A DNA stretch of 58,324 nt, filler included, from Basidiobolus ranarum (lineage: Eukaryota): the NCBI GenBank assembly GCA_040143965.1. It is 7 parts of 7 records of this genome, joined end to end, with 100 filler letters (N's around TTAATTAATTAA, not from the genome) between each part and the next. Parts side by side here need not be neighbours in the genome. Positions count along the whole stretch, not along the records: positions 50,102 to 58,324 come from JASJQH010007874.1; 6 more parts are not named here. One strand, given 5' to 3'. A model generated the notes under the pieces. That model worked only from the letters and a program-made list of their open reading frames with translations, did no database searches and was not told where the DNA came from. Made by a program: the position numbers and the translations under genes. Positions 8,263 to 58,324 of the stretch are shown here, piece by piece. Each line of letters begins with the position of its first letter. The stretch's first letter is position 1.

Positions 8263-8362
8263 NNNNNNNNNNNNNNNNNNNNNNNNNNNNNNNNNNNNNN
8301 NNNNNNTTAATTAATTAANNNNNNNNNNNNNNNNNNNNNNNNNNNNNNNNNNNNNNNNNNNN
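8263..8362. other. Artificial contig spacer
   Basis: 44 N + TTAATTAATTAA (stops in all six frames) + 44 N. Confidence 0.99.
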
Positions 8363-16621: not shown

Positions 16622-16721
16622 NNNNNNNNNNNNNNNNNNNNNNNNNNNNNNNNNNNNNNNNNNNNTTAATTAATTAANNNNNNNNNNNNNNNNNNNNNNN
16701 NNNNNNNNNNNNNNNNNNNNN
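16622..16721. other. Artificial contig spacer
   Basis: N44-TTAATTAATTAA-N44. Confidence 0.99.
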
Positions 16722-17195
16722 CGGTCGATTCCAGCAATTGGAGAATGAGAACTCGTTTTTCCAACCTGTAGAGTCTCCATATAACTTTGACACCGGTGAT
16801 GTGGATCAGCACTGGAGAAGGAACCATGTCTTTGATATTTTAGCCAGCGTGAATAGGGATGGCCTTCAGGCCGATATTGTCTACAGTTCAGTTCTTCATT
16901 CGGAAGATATCGTGTCACAATGGCTTCACACCTGGCAAGAGGTTCTTAACACCATGATCACTCGATGCACTCAGATGGATATTGTTGAGCATACTCGAAG
17001 CGACTTCCCTCTACTCAAACTATCAGAAACTGCCTTTAATGCGCTATACAACGATATACTTCTTCAAACTGGGGTTGATTCCAGCAATATCGAGGATATT
17101 CTACCTTGTACTCACTTACAGGAAGGTCTTATAGCTGGTATGCTCAAGTCATCCGATTACTATCATGTTCAGCAAACTTTCGACATTGTTGGCGA
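16722..17195 (+). repeat. Near-identical NRPS inter-module segment, copy 1 (pairs with ~21409-21880)
   Basis: Directly readable DNA near-identity at offset 4687 (cggtcgattccagcaattggagaatgagaac...). Confidence 0.95.
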
Positions 17196-20100
17196 ATTTG
17201 ACTTGGGAAAATTCCAAAACGCATGGAATACCGTTATCCAAGACCACCCTATTCTACACTCGATATTTGTTCAAAATTCCACGCCAAATGAGAGTAGTAT
17301 CACCTTTTATCAGGTAGCTATTAAACATTTCACTCACCAATGGACACAGTTCAACTGCTCTGAGGCATCCCTGGAAGCAACCATCAACCAGTGTCTGGAC
17401 ACCGATAAAAGTAAATTCTTCAACTTTGGTGAGCCTAATATGAGATTAGCTCTAATTGAAACCGACACGAACAAACGTGTATTCATAGTCAGTTGGCACC
17501 ATGCAATTCTGGATGCGACCTCATGGAAAATTGTTCTACAAGATATCCATGCAGTTTATAATTACCACCCTCGTCCAAAAACGTATCCATTCAAGGACTT
17601 TGTATCAGATTTACTTGACCATACACAAAATTTTATTACGGAAGAGCAGGATTATTGGATGAGCAAGTTCTCGCAGCTTAATATTGAGCCGTTCCCGAAA
17701 CTTGAGGCCTCCGAACAATCGGAATCCGGGATGATTCGCATTTCTGACGCAATAGAACTATCCATCCAGACCATCGAGCAGTTTGCTCGACTTTCGAAGG
17801 TGACAATTTTCACTCTGATTAAAGCTGCATGGGCCATGCTTTTGAGGGAGTACACCCAGTGTGAGGATGTCGCCTTTGGTTACACGATTAGTGGAAGAAA
17901 TAGCGAGCTTGTAGGAATATCTTCCATAGTCGGTCCCTGCATTAACACATTACCATGTCATATACATTTTGAAGGCCAGGTCACTGTAGGTGAATGGCTT
18001 CAGAATGCCCATAGCGACTATATCTCATCTCTCTCCTATCAACAAAGCAGTTTACGTGATATCCAGGGTTGCGTAGGAATATCACCACTTATCGATACTC
18101 TACTCGACTACAAAAATGAACTCACGACCAAGAGTGAAAGTGATACTATAAAGCCACCTGGCATTAGAGCTGATACTTTGGTACTTATACCAATAGCTGG
18201 AGATGAGAAAACAGAGGTATTTAACAATTTAAATGTGACTAAAATGTTGGCTAAGAGCAAACTAAATGGTATTGCGAATATATTTTCGAATTGGTGATTA
18301 ATCGTTCACATAGTATCCACTAGGTATATTTATCGAATCTGATGATCATAATCTAACATACACTGTGACTATAAGTAGAAAGTTAGCTACAATACCTCAT
18401 GCCGAGAGGCTATCCCGTTGCTTCAAGATTCTATTTGAAAGTCTAGTAAGCTCGACATTGGATGCAAAACTTGAGACTATTAAGATCGGTCTGAACGAAG
18501 GACGTGAATCATTTAGTAATTCATCGAGCTCTATGGATGTAAATACAACATATCTTCATCATACATTTGAGAAGCAGGCGGATCTTCACCCAGACAATTT
18601 AGCAGTACAGTTTAAAAATTCTGAATACGTCACTTACGGTGAACTTAATCGCAGGGCAAATAAGTTAGCTCATCATCTGAATGAGCTTGGTGTTCGGCCC
18701 GAGTCGATGGTGCCACTCTGCCTCGAAAAGTCGGTTTCCATGATAGTTGCAATGCTCGCGGTCCTCAAAGCAGGAGGAGCCTATGTTCCGTTTGATCCAA
18801 ACTATCCAGTGGAACGAAACCTTTTCATCCTCAACGAGACGAAGGCCAAGATAGTAATCACACTCGAAAAATACAAGGAACGATTTGGTAACAACCATTT
18901 AGTGCTCCTAGATATTGATGAAGATGTTATTCAACAAAAGGCAGATGACAACCTTCAAACAAACGGGCTCACTCCCTTAAATTTATGTTACGTAATGTAT
19001 ACATCAGGCTCTACTGGTGCTCCAAAAGGTGTCATGTTGGAGCATACTGCATTAGTGAATTTTATATTCTCATTTCGTAAGATGTGGAATCTCACCAAAC
19101 ACGATTTAGTCTTACAATTCACCAACTATACCTTCGATGTATCCATTATGGATATATTTGGCACACTTGCATCTGGAGCTTGTGTTGCAATGGCTTCAGA
19201 GGAGGACTTGCGCACGAATCTAGAGGAAATTATCAACACGATGGATATAACCTCCCTAGTACTGACTCCAACAGTTGTTTCATTTATTGATCCGTCGAAA
19301 GTGCCATCTGTAAAAAGGTTATTACTGGCAGGTGAAATGATCACACCTACTGTTCGAAATGCATGGTTGCCGTATGTTGACTTTTTCAACGCCTACGGTC
19401 CAACTGAAGCCTCTGTTATAGTATCGGTGAACATCCTCCTGGACGAACAAAGCTCATGTAGTAATATTGGATTGCCAATAGGAAATAACGAGATGTGTAT
19501 CTTAGGCCTTGATATGTACCCAGTCCCAGTAGGAGTTGTAGGTGAACTGTGTATCAGTGGTCCTCAACTCGCCCGTGGCTATCTCAACCGTCCCGATCTT
19601 ACAGATAAAGCCTTCGTGTCGAATGATCAAGCTGGTGGTACACGCTTTTATCGCACTGGTGACTTAGCTCGCTTCAACTCTGACGGATCAGTGGAACTGA
19701 TTGGCCGGAAGGACAACCAGATCAAACTTAATGGTTTGCGAATTGAGTTGGATGAGATAGAGCATGCTCTTTGTGGTCACTCAAAAGTAACAAGAGCTTG
19801 TGTACTTCCTTTAATCACTGATCAATCTACAAACCGGAAGTCTTTGGTTGCGTTTCTAGGATTCTCTGATATCATGAATGACAATCACTCTCTGAGGCTA
19901 CTATCTGGATCATGTGCTGAAGTGGCAGTAGTACACATGGAAGAGTTGAAAAATCAGGTAAGGAAACGACTCCCATCATATATGGTACCAAATATATGGG
20001 TTCCCCTTGGTTCAATTCCAATCAACACAAGTGGAAAGATTGATCGTAAACGACTAGCTACTTTCTTCGAGTCTTTGAGCTTAGAGGATGTCATAGGCTT

Positions 20101-23100
20101 ATCAATTGGTTCAAGAGAGCAAGATACTACTTCCTTTACTCCTCTGGAAAAAATGTTGCAAAACATTTGGTCTGAAATTCTTAATATCTCCGCATCTAGT
20201 ATAAACATAGATGATTCATTCTATCAATTGGGCGGAGATTCTATCACGGCCATTCGAGTGTCTTCCTCAATTGGTCAACATGGATTTACGCTTTCTGTGA
20301 GGCAAATCATGCAGAATCCTACCATCCGTGCACAAGCCTCGGCTGCCATCCTAGTAGCAACAACTGCTTTGGAATCTCCCAAGATTGCCCTTGATGAAGT
20401 ATCGCTCACTCCTGTTCTGAAGCATTTCTTAGATACACCTCAGGATAACGTGCATCACTTCAATCAGTCCTGGCTGCTCAAACTGAGAGATTCAATAACA
20501 CAAGGCAGTTTGGAAGTGGCCATTTCATCCTTAATGCAACATCATGAATTACTACGCAGCCGCTTTGTCTATTCTGGAGATCAGTGGAAAATCAAAATAC
20601 TGTCAATCGAACAAGTACAATACAAGATTCATCACACCAAGATTGACTCTCTCGATGAAATGAAAGAACACATTCATAAACTCCAACAAAGCCTCAATCT
20701 AGTCTCAGGCCCCGTTTTCCAAGTATCGATGTATGACCTTAATGACGGAAATCAGTTGCTGTTCATGACCGGCCACCGTTTCGTCATTGATCTCGTGTCG
20801 TGGCGAATTATTTGGGAAGATCTTGAGCAACTTCTTCAAGGAAAAGAATATGGTTACAAGTCGATGTCTTTCATGCAATGGAGTTCCATGTTGGATGATT
20901 ATGCTCAAAGCTTAGATATGGAAGTGTGGCCAGTTCAGGAAGTGTCCCAACCACTAATCACGGATTTGTCACTCCTAGAGCAGAACACAATGCAATCAGC
21001 CAAATCCGTATCTTTCACTTTGACACCTCTGAAGACTGAGCAACTATTCAGTCAGGCTAACATTCCCTTCCAGACGGAAGCTACAGATCTGATGATCTCC
21101 TCACTCGTCATTGCTTATTGCTCAGTGTTCAACTCGAGTAGCATGACTATTGGCTTGGAAGGACATGGTCGAGAACCTTGGCGTGAAGACATTGATATTT
21201 CAAGAACGGTTGGTTGGTTTACCACTCTGTATCCAATGGTCGTGAATGTTCAGCAAACGGACGATCTTTTGACAATTTTGAAACGTGTCAAGGATATGAG
21301 GAAGCTTATCCCAGGCAATGGAATTGTTTACGGGCTCCTTCGTGATCTGAACAGAAGTCAAGAGAATCCTCTGAAAGATGATATTATCCAAATTGGATTT
21401 AACTATACCGGTCGATTCCAGCAATTGGAGAATGAGAACTCGTTTTTCCAACCTGTAGAGTCTCCATATAACTTTGACACCGGTGATGTGGATCAGCACT
21501 GGAGAAGGAACCATGTCTTCGACATTTTAACCAGAGTGAATCAGGATGGCCTTCAGGCCAATATTGTCTACAGTTCAGTTCTTCACTCGGAAGATATCGT
21601 GTCACAATGGCTTTACACCTGGCAAGAGGTTCTTAACACCATGATCACTCGATGCACTCAGATGGATATTGTTGAGCATACTCGAAGCGACTTCCCTCTA
21701 CTCAAACTCTCAGAATCTGCCTTTGATGTGCTATACAATGATATACTTCTTCAAACTGGGGTTGATTCCAGCAATATCGAGGATATTCTACCTTGTACTC
21801 ACCTGCAGGAAGGCCTTATAGCTGGTATGCTCAAGTCATCCGATTACTATCATGTTCAGCAAACATTCGATATTGTTGGTGATTTCGACTGGGTGAAATT
21901 CGAGAATGCTTGGCAAACTGTCGTCCAAGACCACCCTATTCTACACTCAGTTTTTGTTCAAAACTCTGTGATAGATGATAGTAGTATCACTTTCTTCCAA
22001 GTAGCTATTAGAGATTACATTCAACAATGGTCACGAATTACCTGCTCCGAAGAATCCATGGAAGACATGGTATGTAAATATTTCGCTGACGATAGTGAAA
22101 AGTATTTCAATCTAGGCCAACCGAATATGAGATTAGCATTGCTAGAAACGGAAACAGGTAAGCGTGTATTGTGTATCAGTTGGCATCATGCGATTCTTGA
22201 TGCCACTTCGTGGAAGATAGTTTTGGAAGATATCTGCACAGTTTACAGTCAACAACCGCGTCCAAAAACCTATCCGTTCAAAAATTTTGTAGCAAGTTTA
22301 CATAATCGCACATCCGCCTTTATTGTTGAAGAGAAAGCCTACTGGATGAAGAAGTTTTCACAGCTGGATATTACATCATTCCCCAAACTAGAGACTTTGA
22401 ATCAAGTGGACCTGGGAATGATTCTTCTTTCTGGAGTGATAGAATTGCCATTACAGCTAATAGCAGGATTTGCCCGACAATGGAAAGTGACCGTTTTCAC
22501 TATCATCAAGGCTGTTTGGGCTTTACTTCTAAGAGAGTATATCCAGAATGATGATGTTGTCTTTGGTTACACGATCAATGGAAGAAATGGTGAGCTAGAA
22601 GGCGTCTCCTCCATGATCGGACCCTGTATCAACACATTACCATGTTATATTCGTTATGAAAGCCAATCCACTATAGGTGAATGGCTTCAGAGCATTCATA
22701 GCGACTACAATACTTCGCTATCTTATCAACAAAGCAGTTTACGTGATATTCAGAGTTGGACTGGAATATCACCACTTTTTGATACTCTACTCGACTACAA
22801 GGTTAACTCTGAGACTGAGAAGAATACGCTCAATACTTTGGAAATTATTCCACTAAGCGGTGATGGAAGCGTAGAGGTATTTGAATGCTTATATATTCTA
22901 AATATGATTGCATTGCTTTAACCATGTATTTCAAACGTGTACTTAATCAATTTTCCAGTATCCACTAGGTTTAGCCGTTGAATCAAACAGCGATGAACTA
23001 TCTTACAGTATCATGATTGATAGAAATTTAGCTACCATGAAGCATGCGCAGAAACTATCGAGTAACTTCAAGAATCTATTCGAAAGTCTAGTGAGCTCCA

Positions 23101-24974
23101 CTACCGATGCAAGACTTGACACTCTAAATATTGGTTGGGATGAAGACCTTGAACTCTTTAGCCATTCATCGAGCTCGACTGACTTCCAGGGAGTAAATGA
23201 AATATGCCTTCATCGTATTTTGGAGGAGCAAGCAGACCTTCACCCAGACAATTTAGCAGTGAAGTTTAAAGATTCCGAATATGTCACTTACGGAGAACTT
23301 AATCGAAGGGCCAATCAATTGGCTCATCATTTGATCGAACTTGGCATTCGCCCCGAGTCCATGGTGCCACTCTGCCTTGAAAAGTCGGTTTCCATGATAG
23401 TTGCAATACTCGCTGTGCTTAAAGCTGGTGGCGCCTATGTTCCGCTTGATCCAAACAATCCCGTGGAACGAAACCTCTTTATTCTCAATGAGACGAAGGC
23501 CGAGGTCGTGGTGACATTTGACCAATACAAGCATAATTTCGATGGACAGCATTTGGTACTTCTTGATATTATCGGCGAAGTGATCGAACAACAGATGGAA
23601 GCTAATCCCATGGTGCAGGGCCTTACCCCCTCTAATTTATGCTATATCTTGTATACGTCAGGCTCAACAGGTACTCCCAAAGGTATCATGATGGAGCACT
23701 CTGGTGTCGTGAGCTATATGAAAGGATTGCGTAAAGTGTGGAATATAACCTCACATGACACAGTCTTACAATTCTCTAACTACACCTTTGACATGTCTGT
23801 GACGGAAATGTTTGGAACATTTGCAGTTGGGGGCTCAGTTGCTCTTGCTTCCAAGGAGGACTTACTCTCCAACCTAGAAGAAATGATCAACATGATGGGT
23901 GTGACGGCACTGGCAATTACTCCGACAATCGCTACTTTCATTGATCCGTTAAAGGTACCATCAGTAAACAGATTGGTGCTCGGAGGTGAAATGTTCACCA
24001 CCAATGTTCTGAACAAATGGCTACCATATGTTGAGCTATCCAACGGCTACGGTCCTACTGAAGCAGCTGTGGTTATATTGGTGAACTGTCCGATGAACAA
24101 ACAAACTTCATGCGACAATATAGGAAAACCAATTGGAAACAACAAAATATATATCTTAAACAATGACCTGCGTCCAGTACCCCTTGGGGTGGCTGGGGAA
24201 TTGTGCGTCAGCGGTCCTCAACTCGCCCGTGGTTATCTTAATCGACCAGACCTCACTGATAAGGCCTTTGTGTCGAGTCCTTTTGCAGCTGGTGAGCGTT
24301 TATATCGTACTGGAGATTTGGCTTATTTCAATTCCGATGGATCAGTAGAATTGATTGGACGTAAAGACAACCAGATCAAGCTTAATGGTTTGCGTATCGA
24401 GTTGGATGAGATTGAGCATGTTATTTGTGATCTGTCAAAAGTAGCAAGAGCTTGTGTACTTCCTTTAATCACTGACCAATCTACAAATCGTAAATCATTG
24501 GTTGCATTTTTAACGTTTTGTGATATCACCGATGACAACATTTCATTGGAGGTACTGTCTGGTTCTAGGGCAGAAGTTGCGGCAGTATACATAAAGGAGC
24601 TAAAGAAACAGGTTAAGGCACAACTCCCATCATATATGGTGCCAAATATATGGGTTCCCCTTGGTTCAATCCCAATCAACACAAGTGGGAAGATTGACCG
24701 TAAAAGACTGGCTACTTTCTTCGAGTCGTTGAGTCTAGAGGCAGTCATAGGTTTGAAAAATGGCGGTATGTCTGAACAAGACACCTCTTCTTTAACTGCA
24801 CCCGAACAAATGATACAAAGCATCTGGTCGCAGATTCTGAATATCTCCGCGTCTAGCATTAGTATCGACGATTCATTCTATCAGCTAGGTGGTGATTCGA
24901 TTTCAGCCATTCGTGTATCATCTTCAAGTCGCCAAAATGGATTTTCACTTTCTGTGAAGCAGATCATGCAGAAT
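16722..24974 (+). CDS. Nonribosomal peptide synthetase, internal fragment open at both ends: [E C-term]-C-A-T-E-C-A-T; introns 18217-18313 and 22877-22958
   Basis: C motif WHHAILD x2; A motifs YTSGSTGxPKG, YGPTE, YRTGDL, SGKIDRK x2; T motif LGGDSI x2; E motifs LEGHGRE, SRTVGWFT, FNYTG. Two phase-0 GT-AG introns join the three ORFs in frame (E|YPLG). Confidence 0.96.
21409..21880 (+). repeat. Near-identical NRPS inter-module segment, copy 2
   Basis: Matches 16722-17195 with few substitutions. Confidence 0.95.
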
Positions 24975-25074
24975 NNNNNNNNNNNNNNNNNNNNNNNNNN
25001 NNNNNNNNNNNNNNNNNNTTAATTAATTAANNNNNNNNNNNNNNNNNNNNNNNNNNNNNNNNNNNNNNNNNNNN
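24975..25074. other. Artificial contig spacer
   Basis: N44-TTAATTAATTAA-N44. Confidence 0.99.
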
Positions 25075-27956: not shown

Positions 27957-29503
27957 TTAATCCTTAGCATGCATATCAACAGAAGGGTAGTATTGTGCAT
28001 ATTTCCTCAGAATCTCTTCCAGTTCAGCTTTTTGTTCGATCAAATTGGGTGTTAGTTCATCGTAGACATCTTCAAACATTTCTTTAACTGCAGGTTTCTT
28101 GAGTTTTTCTGCACTGCCGAATGATTTCAATATTTTGGTGCGAATATTATGACGAAAGTTTTTCTCCCTTTCCTCGTCCCACCATCCTTTATGTTCAAGG
28201 TATTTACGCATACGAGTCAATGGATTATCCGTTCGTTGCCAATTCTCCACTTCTTTTTTCGACCGATAAGCAGAGGAATCATCGGAGGTACTATGATGTC
28301 CTATGCGATAGGTCATAGCTTCAATTAAAACTGGTTGATGTTCTTCAACTGCAAGTCTTCTAGCTTCTTTGGTAGCATTATAAACAGCCCAAACATCGTT
28401 ACCATCCACACGAATGGTGTGCATACCATAACCAATACCTCTACTAGCAATACCATCACCACGATACTGATCAGAAGTAGGAGTAGAGATAGCAAATCCA
28501 TTATTACGACAAAAGAAGATCACTGGACATTGCATAGTAGATGCCATATTCAAAGCGGCATGGAAATCACCCTCACTAGCAGCTCCGTCACCAAAATAGC
28601 ACATAACACAGTTCTTTTTACCCTCTATTTTAAGGGCGTAAGCAGCACCTGCGGCATGTGGGATTTGAGTGGCCAAGGGAGAGGATATAGTATGGAAATT
28701 ATGCTTAGTAGAACCATAATGTACGGGCATTTGACGACCTTTACCAAAATCCAGTTCATTACTATAACATTGATTCATAAATTCGTCAAAAGTGAAGCCA
28801 CGATAAAGTAGAACTCCGCTTTCACGATACTAATATAAATATATGTATATATATATTAGTGATTATGATGGATTGAATTCAGTTGATGATAGTCACTAAC
28901 CTGACCGAATACGACATCCTCTTTATCAAGACCAGCAGCACTACCAATGTATGCTTCTTCACCATAACTTGTCATATAAAAACTTATACGTCCTTGACGT
29001 TGAGCTTCATAAAGAATCAAATCCATGATATTTAATGAGATCATATCCTCATAAATCTTCACTGCAAACTCTTTGGAGACCTAAGATTTCACTGGATAAG
29101 AGTGAGAGTAATAATGGTAAAGTGGTTACTTTAACTAACCTTGGGATCTTGAGAAGGGTCAAGGATATTACCGTCAGCATCCATGACGTGATAGGTGGGT
29201 ATAGCTTCACCTTTACCAAGGAAGTTCATTTCTTGGGTAAAATAAGAATCAGAGGCTCCAGGGAAGGGAACCTTCTTACGAAGAGCCTGACTAATAGCAG
29301 AGCGAGTTGAATTCTATGAATAATTTAGAAATAGACGTCAAAAAACATGTCACCATCTCTAACGAGAAAGGTGGAATATTGAAGCTGTTGAAAAGAGTAT
29401 CTACCTGTCGAGTAATAACTGAACCAAATATTACTGGTGTATGCTTTTTTAGAGCAATCTTGGTGTTAGAAGGTATAAAGCGACGTGCGATAAGTCCAAG
29501 CAT
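27957..29503 (-). CDS. BCKDHA: 2-oxoisovalerate (branched-chain keto acid) dehydrogenase E1 alpha, mitochondrial, multi-exon
   Basis: [28 protein letters not shown] motif [23 protein letters not shown]; basic presequence [11 protein letters not shown]. Confidence 0.96.
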
Positions 29504-30275: not shown

Positions 30276-31391
30276 TCAAAGCAGAACTAAAAGTTTTTGC
30301 ATAAGCAATACTATGACAACAGCTACGGCGCCACCCATCATAGCACTGTCGAAGTTGAATTTGGAAGAATTCGTTGGATGAGCGTGTAAACCAAAAGAGT
30401 TGGGTACATCAGAGCCATCTTTAGCATAGTACTTAGCAAAGAAATCATTTTGTAACCAAAGAACCTTGTTAAAAGCCAAGATAACTCTTAATTCATGTTC
30501 TCTCTCGAGCTTCAGGGTAGTGACGGCCCAAATCAAAGTTGATTCGACGAAACCAAGAAGAGCAGAGATGTGAATGTATTCAACGTTGATTTTGGACTTC
30601 TTTCCGGGGATGTCGGTATGGATCTTAGCAACCCAGTCCAGATATTTGATCATACGTTCATCATAGGGGTTGTTCAATAGACGGCCAATATAGCGCGTCA
30701 ACATATCCTTACGATACTTGATCTGCGAGCTGTTTACATCAAGTTCACGAATATCCTCGACAACTTTTCCTGCGAAACCCTCGTGACGAGCAGCCATAGT
30801 CTGCCAAGTAATATCGAATGTTTTAAGTTTGTCATAAACAGCGTCGACTAAAACTGCACCAAGAGGAGCGAGTTGCTCGGAAACGGATTTGATAGCCTCG
30901 ACATCTTTCTCGGCGAAGTCCACGAATTTGGCGACATATTGATAACGATATACTGGATCCGTATGAACCAGTAAACGGTCTACGTGTTCTATAGTCAGCT
31001 CTTTATGTGCAGATTTTTCCTCTTTGCGACCAGCAGCATCATCGCAAGCAACCTTAGCCACTGTAATTACTTTGGCGACCATTTCTTCGGATACATTCAA
31101 ATCACGTAGAGCTTTACTAAGATCATCGACTACAGCGTCGAAATGCTCGTCTTTGAGGTTGAGATGGCGATGAGCAATGTTCATCTTCTCACCATTATTG
31201 GCTGGGCCACCGAGAGAAAAGGCCAAGGATTTTGTCAGTATGATACGTTGTTTTTCCATATCAACGCCAACAAAGAATTGTTTAATTCGGACATCATTCA
31301 AAACGTATTTGCTGTAGAATAGATCTATAACTTGGGAGATGGTTTCTTCACCACCAAGTGTTTGATAAAGGGATTTTTCAATGGTAGACAT
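30276..31391 (-). CDS. Intronless two-globin fusion: group I truncated (2/2) haemoglobin + protoglobin/sensor-type globin + C-terminal TM segment (371 aa)
   Basis: N-domain SLYQTLGG...FY...FF.GVDMEKQ...LGGP...AHRHL...EHFDAV. Second domain FVDF...LVDAVYDKL...YLDWVAKIH...VEYIH...AFNKVLWLQNDFF. Hydrophobic tail. Minus-strand TATATAA at 31442-31448 supports the ATG at 31391. Confidence 0.88.
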   Translation of the reverse strand: MSTIEKSLYQTLGGEETISQVIDLFYSKYVLNDVRIKQFFVGVDMEKQRIILTKSLAFSLGGPANNGEKMNIAHRHLNLKDEHFDAVVDDLSKALRDLNVSEEMVAKVITVAKVACDDAAGRKEEKSAHKELTIEHVDRLLVHTDPVYRYQYVAKFVDFAEKDVEAIKSVSEQLAPLGAVLVDAVYDKLKTFDITWQTMAARHEGFAGKVVEDIRELDVNSSQIKYRKDMLTRYIGRLLNNPYDERMIKYLDWVAKIHTDIPGKKSKINVEYIHISALLGFVESTLIWAVTTLKLEREHELRVILAFNKVLWLQNDFFAKYYAKDGSDVPNSFGLHAHPTNSSKFNFDSAMMGGAVAVVIVLLMQKLLVLL

Positions 31392-33326: not shown

Positions 33327-33426
33327 NNNNNNNNNNNNNNNNNNNNNNNNNNNNNNNNNNNNNNNNNNNNTTAATTAATTAANNNNNNNNNNNNNNNNNN
33401 NNNNNNNNNNNNNNNNNNNNNNNNNN
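33327..33426. other. Artificial contig spacer
   Basis: N44-TTAATTAATTAA-N44. Confidence 0.99.
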
Positions 33427-41667: not shown

Positions 41668-41767
41668 NNNNNNNNNNNNNNNNNNNNNNNNNNNNNNNNN
41701 NNNNNNNNNNNTTAATTAATTAANNNNNNNNNNNNNNNNNNNNNNNNNNNNNNNNNNNNNNNNNNNN
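41668..41767. other. Artificial contig spacer
   Basis: N44-TTAATTAATTAA-N44. Confidence 0.99.
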
Positions 41768-47622: not shown

Positions 47623-49002
47623 ATGAGAGAAATTGTCCACCTACAAACTGGTCAGTGCGGTAACCAAATTGGTAACAAATTCTGGGAAACCATCTCTTCC
47701 GAACATGGAATTGACAATAGTGGTACCTACCAAGGTGATAATGACCTCCAACTTGAAAGAATTAACGTCTATTACAATGAGGCTGGTTCAGGAAAATATG
47801 TCCCTCGTGCTGTCTTGATTGATTTAGAACCAGGTACTATGGACACTACCCGTTCAAGCGGTATCGGTGCCCTATTCCGCCCCGATAACTTTATCTATGG
47901 CCAAAACGGTGCTGGTAACAATTGGGCTAAAGGGCATTACACTGAGGGAGCTGAGCTTGTAGACAGTGTAATGGATGTTGTCAGAAAGGAGGCTGAGAAT
48001 TGTGACTGTCTTCAAGGTTTCCAAATCACCCATTCCCTTGGTGGTGGTACCGGCTCTGGTATGGGTACCCTTCTCATTTCAAAAATTCGTGAAGAATACC
48101 CCGATCGTATGATGTGTACTTTTTCTGTTATGCCATCTCCTAAAGTATCTGATACTGTTGTTGAGCCTTACAATTGCACACTCTCTGTCCATCAACTCGT
48201 TGAAAACTCTGACCTTACATTTTGTATCGATAATGAGGCACTTTATGATATTTGCTTCCGTACATTGAAGCTTTCCAACCCCACCTATGGTGATCTTAAT
48301 CATTTGGTTTCTCACGTCATGAGTGGTACCACCACTTCTCTTCGTTTCCCAGGTCAATTGAATTCTGATCTTCGCAAGCTTGCGGTGAACATGGTGCCCT
48401 TCCCCCGTTTACATTTCTTCATGGTCGGATACGCACCCTTGACTTCCCGTGATTCTCAATCCTTCCGCAATGCCAGTGTCGCTGAATTAACTCAACAAAT
48501 GTTTGATTCTAAAAATATGATGGCTGCATCCGATCCGCGTCATGGACGCTATTTGACTGTTTCTGCGATGTTCCGTGGTCGGATGTCTATGAAAGAAGTC
48601 GAGGATCAAATGTACCAAGTGCAAACCAAGAATTCTTCTCATTTTGTCGAATGGATTCCTAATAACATTCAAACCTCCGTATGTGACATTCCTCCCAAAG
48701 ATCTTAAAATGGCAGTCACCTTCGTTGGTAACAGTACAGCCATTCAAGAATTATTTAAGCGTGTTGAGGAACAATTCACAGCTATGTTCCGTCGTAAAGC
48801 TTTCTTACATTGGTACACTGGAGAGGGTATGGATGAAATGGAATTTACTGAAGCTGAATCCAATATGAACGATCTTGTCTCCGAATATCAACAGTATCAA
48901 GATGCCACTGTTGATGAAGAAGAATATGAAGAACAAGGATACGAACAAGAATACGACGAACAATACGAACAAGAAGAATATGAACAACAAGAGGAAAATT
49001 GA
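47623..49002 (+). CDS. TUB2: Beta-tubulin, intronless and divergent (459 aa)
   Basis: [41 protein letters not shown], acidic tail. Confidence 0.98.
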
Positions 49003-50001: not shown

Positions 50002-50101
50002 NNNNNNNNNNNNNNNNNNNNNNNNNNNNNNNNNNNNNNNNNNNNTTAATTAATTAANNNNNNNNNNNNNNNNNNNNNNNNNNNNNNNNNNNNNNNNNNN
50101 N
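50002..50101. other. Artificial contig spacer
   Basis: N44-TTAATTAATTAA-N44. Confidence 0.99.
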
Positions 50102-50292
50102 CACTATCAGGCGGTACAGGCCCCACTCCTGGTGTTGGATCCAGTGCTAGTGTCAGTCTATCGCCCTCAGTGGGTACCAGGGTGACCAACAATCTAGCAC
50201 CAACCATTATTCCCAGTCAAGCAAGCAATGTGCAAATTGGAGCTAGTTTACTGATCTCCCTGATGTTGACTATAAGTGCTTGTCAACTTTGA
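50102..50292 (+). CDS. 3' end of a probable GPI-anchored/cell-surface protein
   Basis: Open frame LSGGTGPTPGVGSSASVSLSPSVGT...PSQASNVQIGASLLISLMLTISACQL*: Ser/Thr/Pro stalk, omega-like site, hydrophobic tail. Confidence 0.6.
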
Positions 50293-53054
50293 TATTCTAA
50301 ACTACTAGAAATTACGTTTTCAATCACTCTTGCATTTATTTATTCCAGATGTATAGGAGCTCCAGTCCCTACTACCTTCATTCCAATTTCAAATAAACCC
50401 TTGCCGAGTATGGCTAAATCATATTTATTTCAAGTGAAACACGATGCACGAAATCTATGCCACCATTCTAGTGAACAATGAATATTGGCCAAAACGAGGC
50501 GAAGTATCAGAACCGATTACTATACTGATCCCTATTCTTCAATCCATGATCCTGAGGTATTTGATTGGATAGATTGTATATCTAGATTGTGAAATCGCTT
50601 TCGTGCTACATCTATTTATCAAGTGCATGTTGATGATAAAGGTTCATACTCAGCTATATGGTACACCAATCATCTACAATGTGTATGCACCTCCCCTATC
50701 ACTGCGGATGGCTAAGAGATATGTGAGCACTGAGATTTGTAGTAGCTGACTCAGTGCTCTAACCATTATATTCCTAATTGCCTTTGTAATATCCCTTACA
50801 CTAGCATAAATAGCGTTAATGGGGTCCTTCAAAAGCCATTCAAGCGAGAATATCAACACAATCTGGAACGGGATTTTAGTTAATAAGCGGTGAAATTATT
50901 CATTTTTGTATGGTTCGTTTGATGTTGTCGAACCTTATCAATCATCCGCTATTACATAAACGTTCACTTCTACCAAAGATGGTGTCGGCTATTCTGCCGG
51001 CAAAGAATAGTTAAAGCAGCTGTCGTTGCTCGAGCCCGTTTTAGCTGAGTCCAAGAGGATTTTAAGCTATAAAGAATCTGAGCCGGGGATTAATGCTATG
51101 TATTAATCGTGAGTCAACTGATCTGAAACAAGATCATAGCAGCTATTCAGCACACCACTTGGCACTTCACAGCATTCTCCTTCATATCTATTAAGATGCT
51201 ACTGGCAACTACGTAGCAATCAGTAGTTTTCTGATTCATCATGAGCAATGATTATGAGCAACGATTGTATTGAAAGTATCTCCAATTCGCATGTTTCATG
51301 GTGAATGCACTTACAACTGCTCATTAGTTAATGGTGGTAGATCTTAGAAAGTTGTAATAGTTGGGTTAGAAAAGAATCCTTAATGATGTCATGATAATAT
51401 TCAAATGTGTTCTGAATAGTTTAACAAAATATCCTGCCAAGAGATCACACAACAGCATTTCAAGTCCCCTCAACTTGTTGTCTAAAAGTAAGTCGAAGCC
51501 CCAGAATGAAACACATAAATGACTAATACTGACAACAAGATATATCTATCATCAGCAGCTCAACTTCCATCCTACACTAGCATCATGAATTTTGATCAAC
51601 ACGCAATACCAACAATCCCCCATTGCACTCTATACCTCTTAGACTTCATCCGAGCAACTCTACCTTTGGAGAGTCTCCAACCTCGAGTTGAGAAAACCAG
51701 TATTCTAGTGTGAGCCTTCCGAGGGTGGAAGTAAGTCTCAACCAACTTTACCATGCACTGCCTCCAGTATCACTAGAGTGCCAGAATCAAAAAGTATTCG
51801 CTTAGATGGCTTAAGTGACACCTCTGTATCTGGTTTATCTACAGGAAATATTTTCCCACCTATCTGAACATCAACTGTGGTCTCCCAAATCAGTGCCCAT
51901 AGTTCTTTGGGGACAGCACCCCTCCCAATATTAGTAGCAGCCCACCTCTGACTATGAACACAAGCACGCATGCCAGGCCGACTACCAGTGTTCGAGCGAA
52001 TAACGAGGGTGTGAAACTTAGATTACTAATCACAATGCATAGAATGTAATCATGAATAACACCAGTAATATTTAAATGGATGAAATATTCCAATACCAGA
52101 AGATGTACAATTACTCACTCTTTATCCAAGTGCCTTAAAGTAAAACACGTGCGCGAACTTGAAATAAGCACCTTCGTCGCAAATAACAATCCCGGTGTTC
52201 CCACTGCTTCAGTGAATAAGTATGACATGGCAAAACTGAGCCAATGATTCGTTTTGCTAGGAACCATAATCAGTACGAACACCTCTATTGACCATCAATG
52301 CCTGCTACTCTATCGTAATGCATGTATATCAATTCACCACAGTACGATCAATGTGTCACATGGAGCAGATGAATCAGAGGAACCGAAATTCTCATCGTGG
52401 GATTACTAACCGCTCTAAATGTTACTGTTACTCGGAGAGCCAGGAATCTTTCGTAGATCCAGCCAAAACAGTCAATGGTGTGAAGTTTCGCGGCCATATG
52501 ATGATTTTGTTGGCTATCCATATCAGGCCTTGCTTCCATACCTGGCGATTTTGGGGCTTTCCAGATCATATGGAAATGTTTTTGGAATGGATTTCCAAAC
52601 CCGTCTGCCATCTTTACGTATAACCCTTCCATAATTGCTCCCGTTCCTTTGATACGAGCTATATTTGGGTTTTCAGTCGTAGTTTGGTCAGTTGTTGAAT
52701 ATTTTGTTTATATGCTCCTTATTTGATTTATTATATAGCAATGAACAATCACCTGCCTAGGTTTGAACTTATTATTATTCTAAAATAGTCTTATCAATAC
52801 CCATATCTTCCTCTCATTTCTTCATATAAAAATCCTTCTGACTCAGACCCTTCCCCATTTTTTTCCAGTTGGAATTCTTTTCTGCCACGAACGACTCAAC
52901 CTCTTACTTTGTCTCTAGTGCAGCCTACCCTCACACATAATTGGAGCTTTACTTGGTTCCCGAAATTTTCTATACCATAATATTCGCGTAAAATCTACTT
53001 GCTGTTTATATTTTATCTTCAGATTATACATATTTCCACTTTCTCTTGTACACA

Positions 53055-54438
53055 ATGCCTCCACTTAATTTTTACAAGGACCAAGTCGATTATTCCTCTT
53101 ATTTTTCTTATGCTGGTAATAACACCTCTTCTCGTTTCGCTTCCCCTTTTGACGAGGACAATATCTCCGGACAAGCTTCAAAAAAATCTTCACAAATCAT
53201 CTCGGACCAACCACTATTTTTGAACTTTACTGCTGATCTTAGTCCACAAAATGGAGCGAAAAAACTGAAAACGAAGAAAAAAAATAGTTATAAAGTAAAC
53301 GGAGTGAATATTTTAAATAGGAAAAGTTTGGATAGTTCAACCGCCCTTGAAAGACTCCAAAAGAGGAGAGAGAACCATAATTCGGTTGAAAGGAAGAGGC
53401 GAGATAATATTAACTCTACTATCATGGAGATATCGGAACTTTTGCCCGGACCAGTCTCCACTTCTTCTAAACCTAACAAAGGAAATATCCTGAAACTTGC
53501 CTCAAAATACATCAAGGTAATACTTGGAGAAATGAATATACATCTGTCCTATTGATTACTAACGTTGTTTTTGTAACTCACAGGAACTGAAATACGAACT
53601 AAGGTCCTTGAAAAATGAAGTCAGAGTCTTAAAGGGAGAGGAACCCTTGGAGGAAGAGGTAGAAGAGACTAAGGATTTAAGGAAAAGAAAGAACCTTGAA
53701 CAAGAGAGCTCCGACGAATCTGAAGAGGATAATGAAAACGAGGAGAAGGAGGATCAGGAAGATATGGATAATGATGAGGATGCCTACTCTTCTGCTGAGG
53801 CATCTCGTCAAGTATCTCCTGAGCCATCACCAGAGGATGTGGTTCCCGAAGTTAGTAGGAAGCAATCAATAGACAGTGAGAAATCTTCCCCTGCAGTGGT
53901 TGAAGAAGTAAAGCAGCATTCCGAGCCCGAGGAATCTAAGCCATTGGAAAGTAATGATAAGCCTACCAACAGTGGTGCAACTACAGGACCTGTTCAGCCA
54001 AGCATTCAGCAACAAGCTGTATCATCGTTCAATATGGTATCATCTATCAACCATGAGATGTTTCCTAGCCCTGAAGCCACCAATTTTATTGACAGTGTAG
54101 ACAAACTACCAAGCTACCCTATACTTGGTGGAAGTAAACGCCAGCGTGCTGATAACTTTACCCTTCCAGGAATGGGGCAATTTACTCCTATGACCACAAC
54201 AACACTTTCTCATATGCACACATTCAACGCTGCACCACGCCATAGTGTACCTGCTAGTCCATTTGGATTCCAACTTCCTGGACCTTCTCATTCAGCACCA
54301 TCGACTCCCTCTACAAATAACCAATCACATTTTGTTAATCATATGGCGTCTCCACACAATTATCAGCCACATCCTCACGCCAGAGGGCCACCACATATGA
54401 TGTTCCGTGAGTATAATGGAAATGTGAATATGTATTGA
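53055..54438 (+). CDS. bHLH(-zipper) transcription factor; exons 53055-53516, 53584-54438
   Basis: RRENHNSVERKRRDNIN...ELLP...NKGNILKLASKYIKEL; H-E-R basic residues typical of CACGTG binders; in-frame GT-AG intron. Confidence 0.9.
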
Positions 54439-54752
54439 GTGTCGATGATCTATAACCTCCACAACTCTTAATGACCCAATTTTATGGTTAGATTCCATGC
54501 TTTTTCCACACCCAACAGCCTAGTTTATTTATCAACATTTTATTAGTTCCAACCAAATTTTGCATGTTTACCCAATCAATGACCTATAACTATAAACGCA
54601 TGTATCCGTATATTCAAGTATTTATATAAAAGGCTAGAATTCAATATTATTATTCCAGAGAACTTTTATGTGATGACAGAGGGACAAGTGAATGAGTGAT
54701 GAGGATAACAATTGGGTTGAATCTTTTCCTAACTCTCGAAGTTGACGCTGAT

Positions 54753-56167
54753 TTAGCATAGGCCTCCTTCCTCTTCGATTGGTTCGGGTTGAAATACGGT
54801 GGTTGTATTCGACGTGGTGTTTGGTTGATCAACAGGTACAGAAACGGGAATGGGTGCTGCAACGCTACCACCTCCGGGAACTCTGAGATTTCTTGCAATA
54901 CGAGCAACCTATGATAATAATGAATGTTAATTTCATTTTCGAGGAATTTCTTTAAATTAACTTGGAAAACCTCATTATCAAGGAAGTTTACAATGCGATT
55001 CGAAACCGCTTCACTCAATTTTTCTTGATCGAAATTCTGAAAGGCTTCGATGATTTCTTGGGCTACATAGGCTTCATCTCCCATACCAAAGCCACCTCTG
55101 TATCAAGTGAATGAAATATTAATTCAAGTCAATGATCGTTAATAAAAGTGGACTTTCTTACTGCATAAAGTTTGTGTACTGCTTGTTAGCCTCTACATCA
55201 TCACCCATTCCTAATAATACGATGATGATACTTAAATAAGTTTTATCCATATTTGCAGTAATTCCTAAACTTTTGTTCATATCCGCGAATTTCTGTAACA
55301 TCGCGACTGCTTTCTCAAAACTGTTGAAAAGTAGAAAACGATCAGTAAAAAGAGAAGATTTAAAATGATTGAATATATATCACTTCTTACTAACGATGTT
55401 TAAGGAGTAAAGTGATGGTTTTACGAAAAGTATCCACTCCAAAACGTCCTCTATCTTCGGTTTCGTATAAGTTACAAGAGGCAATGTAAAGTTCTAATGA
55501 TTGTTCAATATCGATGTTTTCAAGTGCTCTAGAGATTCCCTTTAATATTGATGGAAGAGTGACGTTTGAATGGGTGAGATTCACTTACTTTCCACCCTTT
55601 TCTAACATTTCGGCTGCGTTGTCAGCTGAACCATGAGCATTATACAAATCACTGGCTTTGCGATAGTATTGTGCTGCACGTTCAGGTTCCTTTGTTTGTA
55701 TATTCATACTTGCTGCTGATTCATAGGCTTTCGCTGCCATAAATAAACTATTCAAATAGCGTGAGAAATAGTTGAAAAATACCACCATAAAGAGATTACT
55801 CACGAATCAGCTTTAAACTGTGCCTCAGCAGCTTTTAAGAACGCTTCTGAAGCCTTTTCATATGACCTAGCGGCTTTGAAACAAGAGGCTACAAGTTGAC
55901 AAATAGATATTTCAGTAAAGTTTAGTTTCTTTTAAAACTTTAATATAACTAAAGTATAAAGTTTATCTTTACCAGCTTTATCATAATATTGACCTGCGAT
56001 GTCCCAATCAGGTTTACGGAACCAACTTTTGGTGGCACTTGGGGAAAAAGAGTAAATATCTTTTAACGGTCTCGAGTTGATATGATGTTTAAAGAATCCA
56101 ATTGAACATACGCTTTATCTCCCTCTTTTAGAAATTCTAAACCTTCGTTGATTCTTTGGGTTTCCAT
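54753..56167 (-). CDS. NAPG: Gamma-soluble NSF attachment protein (gamma-SNAP), multi-exon
   Basis: WFRKPDWDIAGQYYDKA, LFMAAKAYESAA, GSADNAAEMLEK, FLDNEVARIARNL, C-terminal EEEGGLC*. Confidence 0.85.
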
Positions 56168-56883
56168 GTTTGCTACTCAGATTTTAGTTCAAAATAAATA
56201 GGTGAACCAAAGCAGAAATGACTTTAGAGAATATTATTCGTAAAGTTGGGTAATATTCAGATTCAACAAGAATTATCTATATTAATGAATGATTAAATTA
56301 CTCTTTGAAGATTGGTTAGATTGAGGTGAATTTTCATCTATTGAATAAGTTGAGATGTAGGTGAATGATGGAATATATGGTCTAGGTTATTAATGGTTTG
56401 TATTGTTACTTTATCATGGACGAAGAATTAGTGGCGTTGTCTAAACTACGTGAACGAACTTTACTCTTCTGGTTAGCAACGAAGAAGTTACAACCAGAAA
56501 CGAAGTTTCATTTATTTGAAAGGTACAGTTTAAACTGACTTCTGTTTCTCACAATATACTTACTTTGCCATTAGAAATATTGCTACCGGACAGCTTCAAT
56601 GCACCGATGCTGAAGAAAGCCATTTTCACGTAAAGAATCTGCAGACTCCTCTGGGGATCTATCCAAACGTGTTGATTAGATCTTCGGATGTTGAATATTT
56701 GGAATTCGAAACTTGACATTATCAATGTCAACAGCGTGAAGAATAGACAGAATCTCGACAGTTAACAGCAAATATACCGTCGATTAAGAATATTTGAAGA
56801 GTTTATTTCATAGTTTACCGATGAAATATATAACAACACAAAAAATAAACAACTATATACAGTGAGGATATCTTATGGATGGT

Positions 56884-58324
56884 TCATTTGTTGGAAGTTG
56901 TCCTTCTATCACTGCTCAGCATTTGATCAAGTCTATCGGATTTAGTATTCTAAAAGTTCAGCGTAAGTAGCAGTTCTCTATAGTATTGTCCACTTGACTC
57001 ATAAAATTACTTACACTGGCGTTGATTTGCGCAACAAGTGCATTATTCTCCGTTTCAAGGCGTCTCAAGGTATTGCGCGTCTGGGTGATTTCGTTTGTAG
57101 CCCGAATTAGCTGTCGTTTAAGCTCGTCCTTGGACTTCTCAATGGTAATATGTAAATCTCGGAGGGTGGAGAGTTCGCGCAACAAGCTAGATTTGTCCAA
57201 CTAAGATTGTGTTAGTTACAAAATGGTCTTTTTAATTGAATGCCACTGACATTACCTCAGTGGAGCGAAGTTGCTTCTCGACGGTGGCTAAGGATGTCAT
57301 TAACTCTATGATGAGATAAGTTAGCAGTCTGTGATAGGTAATTGGAAGTAAAGGCATTTACGTTCAGATTGTCGCTTATATGCTTTCAAGTCTACTTGAT
57401 GCTGCTTATAATCAACCGAATGCTCGTCCAACTGTTTCTGTAAGGCTTGCAGTTGATTGTCACAATCGGATAGCTCCGATCTATAGTCCCAAGAATTAGT
57501 GAGTGAACGCAGATTAGTGAGTGAACGCGTGTACTATTCATATGCCACACTTTGAAATAATTTACCGAAGCTTTCGATTTTCATTGATGGATTGTTTCAA
57601 CGCGCGATCAAGCTTTTCGTAATCGATGGTCAACCTTCTGTAGGCTTCGTTGAGTCTATTCTGGTCGATATTTTGAGTATGAACTAGATCGCTGAGTGAC
57701 ATGTTTTGATGATCCTTCTCCTTGAGTTCTGAGGTGATCCGAGACTTCTCTTTCTCGAGCTGAATCATGGAATTAGAATATAATTGGAAAGGAAGGTGGC
57801 TACAAGAGAATATACCACTGATATCTTATGAAGAAGCTCCTGATTTTTTTGTTGAAGATCTGATGCTTTGTCGTTGATTTCTTTCATGGAATCAGAATGC
57901 TCCTGTATTAAAGATTGCGTTAGCTATGAGAGAGTCAGCTAGAGGTTATCGACCAAATCTTGAAACCTTAAAACTTGTCTGTTCTATGTGAAGCTGAGCG
58001 GAGAGTTCGTTGATGTTCTTTTGTAATGATTCAATCTTATCTTTTAATTTTCGTGACTCTTCAAGAGATTGAACCTGCTCTGAATGGAAAACAAATGTTT
58101 ACATTGTAGAATGATTTAAGTCAAATTGTTGAAAATAGGAACCTTCGAGAGCGTTTTGTTTACTTTTTTCAACTTGTCCTTTCTTCAATTCTTGATTGGC
58201 CCTATTCTATAAAGTGCAATTAGTATACACATTTGACGCTTGGCACGATAGAGCAACATACCAAAGATGAGTTCTCTCGTTTCATTTGATTGATTTCAGT
58301 CAGTAGCCGCTCAATATGTTGATT
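56884..58324 (-). CDS. CEP135: Coiled-coil protein, CEP135/Bld10-like, 3' part (5' end outside window)
   Basis: Spliced ...RLNEAYRRL...Q...E....RSEL...D.....L...HQVDLKAYKRQSEQLMTSLATVEKQLRSTELDKSSLLRELSTLRDLHITIEKSKDELKRQL... matches, without gaps, my recollection of the CEP135 C-terminal coiled coil. Last exon 56949-56884. Confidence 0.65.

What the first reader, a model, noticed from the sequence alone, without database searches (positions are those of the whole stretch)
56884..58324. Centriole cartwheel gene CEP135/Bld10, C-terminally shortened, in a probably non-flagellated fungus
Seen: spliced exons encode L..AY..L....E.......Q...E....R.EL...D.....L.............H.....AY..Q...L...L...E..LR..E.DK..LL.ELS.LRDL...IE..KD....QL. 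From memory this aligns gaplessly over more than 130 residues with human CEP135 (...HINAHHAYESQISSMAKAMSRLEEELRHQEDEKATVLNDLSSLRELCIKLDSGKD...). The ORF then stops (RLDQMLSSDRRTTSNK*) roughly 100+ residues before the animal C-terminus. Known: CEP135/Bld10 links the SAS-6 cartwheel to centriolar microtubules, is generally lost with flagella in fungi, binds SAS-6 through its C-terminal region, and Bld10 truncation alters centriole symmetry in Chlamydomonas. Basidiobolus has a centriole-like nucleus-associated organelle with 11-12 singlet microtubules. Inference: a relic, remodelled centriole-assembly system that could explain a non-ninefold organelle and represent a centriole-to-SPB intermediate.
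Basis: partly seen in the sequence, partly recalled or inferred. Interest (0 to 1): 0.82.

Follow-up and report, generated by a model that had tools for sequence, protein, structure and literature searches.

The report
Possible CEP135-like gene in Basidiobolus
The end of a small contig from a Basidiobolus-type fungus, which has no flagella, carries the intact tail of a gene for a long rod-shaped protein that may be the centriole protein CEP135, but that family assignment could not be tested here.

Summary
On the minus strand, nine GT-AG exons (58324 to 56884) give an open 313-codon frame. The product is an unbroken heptad coiled coil with 0 Pro and 1 Gly.

The gene is cut at its 5' end. The window is seven separate contigs joined by N44-TTAATTAATTAA-N44 spacers, and this is the last one. 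More 3' exons are unlikely, because a convergent Gemin7 gene starts 168 nt beyond the stop.

An enzyme on another contig is 88% and 85% identical to Basidiobolus meristosporus and at most 76% to other listed fungi. The two contigs have matching composition.

The CEP135/Bld10 assignment stays untested. Spliced protein could not be sent to the databases, and single exons retrieved no named CEP135. They matched no Pfam family and no solved structure. One true homologue turned up: an unnamed 89-aa metagenome fragment with 39% identity and apparently the same intron position.

I put true CEP135 orthology at about 0.5. "C-terminally shortened" rests on recalled sequence only.

The parts
58262..58324 (-). 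Exon 1 of the visible part (21 codons). It is open at the contig and window end; the gene continues beyond it.
   Evidence: contig end
58143..58206 (-). Exon 2 (64 nt)
   Evidence: flanking AG and GT
57967..58079 (-). Exon 3 (113 nt)
57816..57902 (-). Exon 4 (87 nt)
57566..57759 (-). Exon 5 (194 nt, the longest).
   Evidence: No Pfam, PDB or metagenome relative.
57362..57480 (-). Exon 6 (119 nt)
   Evidence: PDB search negative
57256..57305 (-). Exon 7 (50 nt). It aligns to the N-terminal part of P0004 although it was not part of the query that found P0004.
57015..57200 (-). Exon 8 (186 nt, 62 codons). This is the best-conserved block and was the query for the database searches.
56884..56949 (-). 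Last exon (21 codons plus the TGA stop at 56886-56884)
56802..56807 (-). AATAAA on the minus strand, 77 nt downstream of the stop. A possible poly(A) signal.
   Evidence: sequence match only
56416..56716 (+). Convergent two-exon Gemin7 gene (82 aa; intron 56523-56574). It leaves only 167 nt between the two stop codons.
   Evidence: PF11095, E 2.3e-11, 43.9 bits, cut-off 25; model
50002..50101 (.). Contig spacer N44-TTAATTAATTAA-N44. The contig that carries the finding is 50102-58324 (8223 bp).

Best explanation
This is the 3' part of an intact, spliced gene of a Basidiobolus-type fungus. It encodes the last 313 residues of a long protein that forms one uninterrupted heptad coiled coil, followed by a short non-helical tail.

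Most likely it is the C-terminal end, carrying conserved region 2, of a divergent CEP135/Bld10-family protein. Such a protein would work as a parallel dimeric rod. In the known family the N-terminal region, which lies beyond the contig end here, binds microtubules. [quoted passage not shown] In Basidiobolus the rod would tie the microtubules of the nucleus-associated organelle to its core, or simply stabilise them.

Shown: the gene structure, the stop codon, the coiled-coil character, conservation in one other eukaryote, and the type of organism.
Inferred: family membership, dimerisation, partners, and location in the cell.
For: - Nine in-frame GT-AG exons, 313 codons.
- 6 of 8 introns carry a CTRAY motif at 15-21 nt from the 3' end. 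The product has 0 Pro and 1 Gly. The 3.5-residue periodicity is reached by 0 of 2000 shuffles.
- Of 1,835,955,588 representative proteins searched with exon 8, 4 reached E <= 0.001. One of them, P0004 (E 3e-4), is a collinear homologue.
- Against the spliced fragment, P0004 gives a gapless 72-aa alignment with 28 identities. The raw score is 129, against 36.3 +/- 5.8 in shuffles; 0 of 2000 shuffles reach it. The alignment runs on across the exon 7/8 junction, which was not in the query.
- In tblastn both sequences read a GTx codon directly after the same alignment column, which suggests a shared intron position.
- Organism: E1-alpha is 88% and 85% identical to B. meristosporus, and at most 76% to all other listed hits. 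Tetranucleotide correlation between that contig and this one is 0.95.
- Bld10-family proteins are extensive coiled coils with two conserved regions, CR1 and CR2 (PMC3521689, passage).
- Human Cep135 residues 416-1140 bind SAS-6, and the N-terminal region binds microtubules (PMC4113102, passages).
- Basidiobolus has a centriole-like nuclear-associated body with a different microtubule arrangement (PMC3281927, passage).
My own recollection agrees with it, but that is not an independent check.
Against: - No tool result names CEP135.
- The exon 8 search of 1.84 billion representatives returned no animal, chytrid or algal protein at E <= 0.001. Its top hit, P0003 (E 3.7e-11, 9 stretches), is an internally repetitive generic coiled coil.
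- Word-index searches found nothing: 82 candidates and 7999 candidates, none at E <= 0.01.
- B. meristosporus proteins are in that collection, yet none matched exon 8.
- 0 of 4 exons and 0 of 3 further pieces reached a Pfam cut-off.
- PDB searches gave only chance-level hits, best E 0.31.
- The two Atlas look-ups gave unrelated coiled-coil families.
- Reviews report SAS-6, CPAP and CEP135 as not found in non-chytrid fungal genomes, including Coemansia reversa (PMC6070874, passage; PMC3144413, passage).
- The N-terminal CR1 region is not in the window.
- The taxonomic assignment comes from a different contig.
Confidence: 0.5

Rival explanations
1. A real gene for a long coiled-coil protein that is not a CEP135/Bld10 orthologue. 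Examples would be another spindle-pole, nuclear-envelope, golgin or motor-adaptor rod restricted to some early-diverging fungi. Its resemblance to CEP135 would then be heptad-driven.
For: - No named CEP135 was retrieved.
- The best-scoring database hit is a generic repetitive coiled coil.
- The Atlas gives 10 different coiled-coil families for P0004, none shared among them.
- By my own recollection only (no call), the recalled similarity is strong over about 55 residues and near background elsewhere.
Against: - P0004 shows position-specific conservation (z = 16) and apparently a shared intron. This is a conserved family rather than low-complexity noise.
- Only 3 chance coiled-coil hits reached E <= 0.001 among 1.84 billion proteins, so heptad similarity alone rarely scores this high.
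- The conserved block sits near the C-terminus of an all-coiled-coil protein. I recall, but did not check in a call, that CR2 of CEP135 sits in that position.
Confidence: 0.38
2. The contig is a contaminant from a flagellated eukaryote in the assembly. A CEP135 gene would then be expected and ordinary.
For: - The window is seven unlinked contigs.
- The Basidiobolus assignment was made on contig 4, not on this contig.
- No gene of contig 7 could be placed taxonomically with the searches left.
Against: - The tetranucleotide profile of contig 7 correlates at 0.95 with contig 4 and at a mean of 0.904 with the other six. It is not the outlier; the NRPS contig is, at 0.827.
- GC content is in the same range, and the introns are of similar length: 55-85 nt here, against the one intron gap measured in the E1-alpha gene, about 74 nt between 28826 and 28901.
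Confidence: 0.05
3. A decaying relic (pseudogene or unexpressed remnant) of an ancestral centriole gene.
For: - No annotated protein containing exon 8 was found, although other proteins of the window are in NCBI/UniRef.
Against: - All nine exons are open, and all 8 introns have canonical ends.
- The heptad phase is kept over 313 residues.
- Truncation by a contig end is enough to explain a missing annotation.
Confidence: 0.07

Closest known systems
CEP135/Bld10 family (human CEP135, Chlamydomonas Bld10p, Tetrahymena Bld10)
   Same: - An almost entirely coiled-coil protein.
- A conserved block close to the C-terminus, where I recall CR2 lies. PMC3521689 names CR1 and CR2 but the passage I saw does not give their positions.
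   Different: - Identity with the family was not shown by any tool.
- The N-terminal microtubule-binding region (CR1) is not visible.
- By recollection only, the protein ends roughly 100 residues earlier after the conserved block than the human protein does.
- The host is a non-flagellated fungus, where the family is reported absent (PMC6070874, PMC3144413, passages).
P0004, an unnamed 89-aa ORF fragment from ENA metagenome assemblies (2-member cluster, longest contig 1105 bp)
   Same: - 28 of 72 residues identical, with no gaps.
- Collinear over two exons of the window.
- Apparently the same phase-0 intron position at the end of exon 8.
   Different: - It has no intron where the window has the exon 7/8 intron.
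- Its organism and the rest of its protein are unknown.
Coemansia reversa spindle pole body with a ring of nine microtubules
   Same: A non-flagellated zygomycete with a centriole-like microtubule cylinder at the spindle pole (PMC6070874, passage).
   Different: No orthologues of SAS-6, CPAP or CEP135 were detected in its genome (PMC6070874, passage). Here a candidate exists.

Membership tests
CEP135/Bld10 | Extensive, nearly continuous coiled coil | tested here: met
   For the visible 313 aa only: 0 Pro, 1 Gly, and a 3.5-residue periodicity with power 2.84 against 0.21 in shuffles (0 of 2000 shuffles reach it).
CEP135/Bld10 | Conserved region 2 (C-terminal) recognisable by sequence against known members | tested here: inconclusive
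   Exon 8 alone retrieved no named member at E <= 0.001 among 1.84 billion representatives, nor through the word index. A 62-aa query may be too short. The spliced product could not be submitted, and no known CEP135 sequence was available for a direct comparison.
CEP135/Bld10 | Conserved region 1, the N-terminal microtubule-binding domain | not testable with these tools
   The gene runs off the contig end at 58324. No genome is held. No candidate 5' part was seen on the other six contigs.
CEP135/Bld10 | Reciprocal best hit with a known orthologue | not testable with these tools
   No genome to search.
CEP135/Bld10 | Co-occurrence with SAS-6 and SAS-4/CPAP in the same genome | not testable with these tools
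   No genome held. Nothing of this kind was seen among the ORFs of the window.
CEP135/Bld10 | Localisation to the cartwheel spoke tip or centriole wall | not testable with these tools
   Needs microscopy.
Named coiled-coil families in Pfam (for example LRRFIP, Tup_N, Rootletin, HOOK, TACC) | Score at or above the family's curated cut-off | tested here: not met
   0 of 4 exons and 0 of 3 further pieces reached a cut-off. The best was 18.4 bits against a cut-off of 25.6. Exons were scanned singly, which lowers scores.

The most novel reading that the evidence does not exclude
Basidiobolus, a fungus with no flagellated stage, has kept a working CEP135/Bld10 orthologue that helps build its microtubule-bearing nucleus-associated organelle. 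That organelle would then be a remodelled centriole, a molecular intermediate between the centriole and the spindle pole body.
Probability: 0.4. Interest if true: 0.85.

Novelty: new member of a known kind. Interest (0 to 1): 0.6.

Why it matters
Reviews of centrosome evolution state that the core centriole-assembly proteins (SAS-6, CPAP, CEP135) are absent from all fungi except the flagellated chytrids. They also state that the molecular make-up of the centriole-like cylinders seen in some zygomycete spindle poles is unknown (PMC6070874 and PMC3144413, passages).

Basidiobolus has such an organelle (PMC3281927 and PMC6492006, passages). A retained CEP135 would give the first molecular handle on it. 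It would also make the question of how the centriole turned into the spindle pole body testable by localisation and knock-out.

In the held library, no paper contains both 'CEP135' and 'Basidiobolus', or both 'SAS-6' and 'Basidiobolus'. If the protein is just another coiled coil, the locus is ordinary.

Tried and rejected
- Whole-genome access: none held.
- Earlier notes of this scan: nothing on this genome, on CEP135/Bld10, on Basidiobolus, or by sequence.
- Word-index protein search, 'longer' proteins, with exon 8: 82 candidates, none at E <= 0.01.
- The same search with the alignment of P0004 and exon 8: 7999 candidates scored, none at E <= 0.01.
- HMMER over 1.84 billion representatives with exon 8: 4 hits. 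Three (P0003, P0005, P0006) I rejected as internally repetitive coiled coils after reading them.
- JGI metagenome scans: 596 pattern matches and 315 pattern matches, none confirmed by tblastn.
- PDB by sequence with the alignment, exon 5 and exon 6: only chance-level hits, best E 0.31. One was a 'Centriole protein' chain, 6yrl, at E 0.4. I take it as chance and recall it to be a SAS-6 coiled coil.
- Pfam: nothing above a cut-off.
- ESM Atlas, twice: short unnamed helical proteins, then ten unrelated coiled-coil families. Not informative.
- Cluster look-up of P0004: unnamed, ENA only.
- Search of the other six contigs for the missing 5' part: my first composition filter printed nothing. A ranked list showed no comparable coiled-coil ORF.
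- Papers not held: PMC2858018, PMC3630357, doi 10.1098/rstb.2013.0453. I therefore did not see the original descriptions of CR1/CR2 (Carvalho-Santos 2010, Hodges 2010) or of the SAS-6 binding region (Lin 2013); I cite them through reviews.
- Structure and complex prediction were not run. A single long helix carries no family information.

Full report
**What is in the sequence**

The finding lies on the minus strand. Translating the reverse complement of 56701-58324 shows coding segments that move between frames. Joining nine segments at GT..AG borders gives a 942-nt open frame of 313 codons plus TGA. My first attempt misplaced two acceptors by one base and broke the frame.

The eight introns are 55-85 nt long. 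All are GT..AG, and 6 of 8 carry a CTRAY branch-like motif 15-21 nt from the acceptor. In the E1-alpha gene of the same window, tblastn with B. meristosporus proteins leaves an intron-sized gap of about 74 nt (28826 to 28901), so the intron size is typical of this genome.

The product has 0 Pro and 1 Gly among 313 residues. Its hydrophobic positions repeat every 3.5 residues, with power 2.84 against a mean of 0.21 in shuffles; 0 of 2000 shuffles reach it. It is therefore one unbroken heptad coiled coil with a short polar tail.

**The window is not one stretch of genome**

N runs come in pairs of 44 around the twelve bases TTAATTAATTAA. They split the window into seven pieces of 8262, 8259, 8253, 8252, 8241, 8234 and 8223 bp. 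The lengths 8234 and 8252 are also the contig lengths on record for the beta-tubulin and the globin-like protein of pieces 6 and 4.

So the window is seven separate contigs, sorted by size. The finding sits on the last one (50102-58324), and the gene is cut by the contig end. Nothing can be said about the N-terminal two thirds or more of the protein. Genes on other pieces are not its neighbours.

**The 3' end**

The stop is at 56886-56884. An AATAAA lies 77 nt downstream on the same strand.

A two-exon gene on the opposite strand (56416-56716, 82 aa) matches Pfam Gemin7 at E 2.3e-11 and 43.9 bits, against a cut-off of 25. It ends 167 nt from the stop. A SNAP-like gene follows on the minus strand; one of its exons scores 21.6 bits, below the cut-off of 25.

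**Organism**

I searched with the 290-aa open frame of branched-chain keto-acid dehydrogenase E1-alpha on contig 4. 7982 of 8000 scored candidates reached E <= 1e-30, and the best 120 were listed. The top two are both from Basidiobolus meristosporus CBS 931.73, at 88% and 85% identity. The third is 76% (Linnemannia), and all other listed fungi, chytrids included, are at 76% or below. The two B. meristosporus proteins are 87% identical to each other. The source is therefore a Basidiobolus or a very close relative, though I cannot say which.

Other contigs carry fungal-type genes: class II cAMP phosphodiesterase, an SPP41/DUF3020 domain and a bHLH domain.

The finding is on another contig, so I compared tetranucleotide profiles. 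Contig 7 correlates at 0.95 with contig 4 and at a mean of 0.904 with the other six. The means across contigs range from 0.827 to 0.918, and the low one is the NRPS contig. This supports one genome but does not prove it.

Basidiobolus has no flagellated stage. [quoted passage not shown] The figure of 11-12 singlet microtubules is recalled from McKerracher and Heath 1985; I did not see it in any call.

**Is it CEP135/Bld10?**

This could not be tested. The rules do not let a joined sequence be typed into a tool, so only single exons (64 aa at most) could be sent.

- Exon 8 (62 aa), word-index search for longer proteins: 82 candidates, none at E <= 0.01.
- Exon 8, HMMER over 1,835,955,588 representatives: 4 proteins at E <= 0.001.
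- Three of those four (P0003, P0005, P0006) are internally repetitive coiled coils. P0003 scores highest only by adding up nine repeats.
- The fourth, P0004 (89 aa, E 3e-4), is a genuine relative.

Evidence that P0004 is a relative:

- Against the spliced fragment it aligns without gaps over 72 residues, with 28 identities.
- The raw score is 129, against 36.3 +/- 5.8 for 2000 shuffles, with a maximum of 66.
- The alignment continues into exon 7, which was not in the query.
- In tblastn both sequences read a GTx codon directly after the same column. P0004 then runs into eleven Phe/Ile/Asn-rich codons. I read this as the same intron position.

P0004 comes from ENA metagenome assemblies and has no name.

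Further searches found nothing:

- The alignment of P0004 with exon 8 found no longer relative.
- It found no PDB relative; the best E was 0.31.
- It found no JGI metagenome locus.
- Exon 5 found no metagenome locus.
- Exons 5 and 6 found nothing in the PDB.
- No Pfam family reached its cut-off for 4 exons or 3 further pieces.
- The Atlas gave only generic helical or coiled-coil clusters.

**What these negatives mean**

They are weak. A 62-residue coiled-coil query needs about 35 bits to reach E 0.001 in a library of this size, and a distant orthologue need not reach that.

They are still negatives, and three points count against the assignment:

- No animal, algal or chytrid CEP135 came up.
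- No B. meristosporus protein came up, although that proteome is in the collection.

In favour of the assignment there are only these:

My own recollection agrees with it, but it comes from the same kind of source and is not a test.
- The position of the conserved block near the C-terminus of an all-coiled-coil protein.
- The fact that Bld10-family proteins are described as extensive coiled coils with two conserved regions, CR1 and CR2 (PMC3521689, passage).
- The biology of the host.

I put true orthology at about 0.5.

**'C-terminally shortened'**

The window shows about 52 residues between the end of the conserved block and the stop. That this is about 100 residues fewer than in human CEP135 is recollection.

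Even if correct, family members are of very different sizes: Bld10p is numbered to residue 1640 and human Cep135 to 1140 (PMC4113102, passages).

The Chlamydomonas experiment that gave short spokes and eight triplets removed the C-terminal 35% (residues 1070-1640) or the N-terminal 54%. That is far more than the difference claimed here (PMC4113102, passages). The same review notes that in Drosophila the protein behaves more like a microtubule-associated stabiliser than a spoke component.

The step from a shorter tail to a non-ninefold organelle is therefore speculation.

**Prior knowledge**

[quoted passage not shown] PMC3144413 links loss of centrioles in some fungi to loss of SAS6, SAS4/CPAP and BLD10/CEP135.

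Galindo et al. (PMC8371127, passages) and a 2026 survey of 184 fungal proteomes (PMC13358043, passages) analyse flagellar proteins. The text I searched mentions neither CEP135 nor Basidiobolus.

Full-text searches for CEP135 with Basidiobolus and for SAS-6 with Basidiobolus found 0 papers each. This covers the held open-access library only.

**Verdict**

This is a real, intact, conserved coiled-coil gene tail in a Basidiobolus-type fungus. The CEP135 identity is plausible but untested, and the 'shortened' and 'relic centriole' readings are unsupported so far.

Noticed in passing
window 8263-8362, 16622-16721, 24975-25074, 33327-33426, 41668-41767, 50002-50101: The window is seven separate contigs (8262 down to 8223 bp, sorted by length) joined by N44-TTAATTAATTAA-N44 spacers. 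Adjacency across these points is artificial. For example, an NRPS thiolation-domain frame ends at one spacer and the middle of ribosomal protein L18A/L20 begins right after it.
   Followed up: yes
window 16722-24974 (+): A whole contig is filled by a multi-module non-ribosomal peptide synthetase, open at both ends. Near-identical segments are repeated between modules. Its tetranucleotide profile is the least like the other contigs (mean r 0.827). Whether this reflects foreign origin was not tested.
   Followed up: partly
window 47623-48999 (+): An intronless beta-tubulin (459 aa) with an unusual Glu/Tyr/Gln-rich C-terminal tail. It stands alone in its 90%-identity cluster among about 15 billion proteins.
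   Followed up: partly
window 30279-31391 (-): An intronless 371-aa protein that joins a bacterial-like globin domain (PF01152, E 1.3e-11) to a protoglobin domain (PF11563, E 9.4e-35). It is also a singleton at 90% identity.
   Followed up: partly
window 56416-56716 (+): A small two-exon Gemin7 gene (82 aa; SMN-complex component) converges on the finding's 3' end. The two stop codons are 167 nt apart, so the 3' UTRs may overlap.
   Followed up: partly
window 27957-29280 (-): The window's E1-alpha is about as far from each of the two B. meristosporus paralogues (88% and 85%) as they are from each other (87%). No identical protein appeared among the 120 listed hits, although other proteins of the window are in the collection.
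   Followed up: partly
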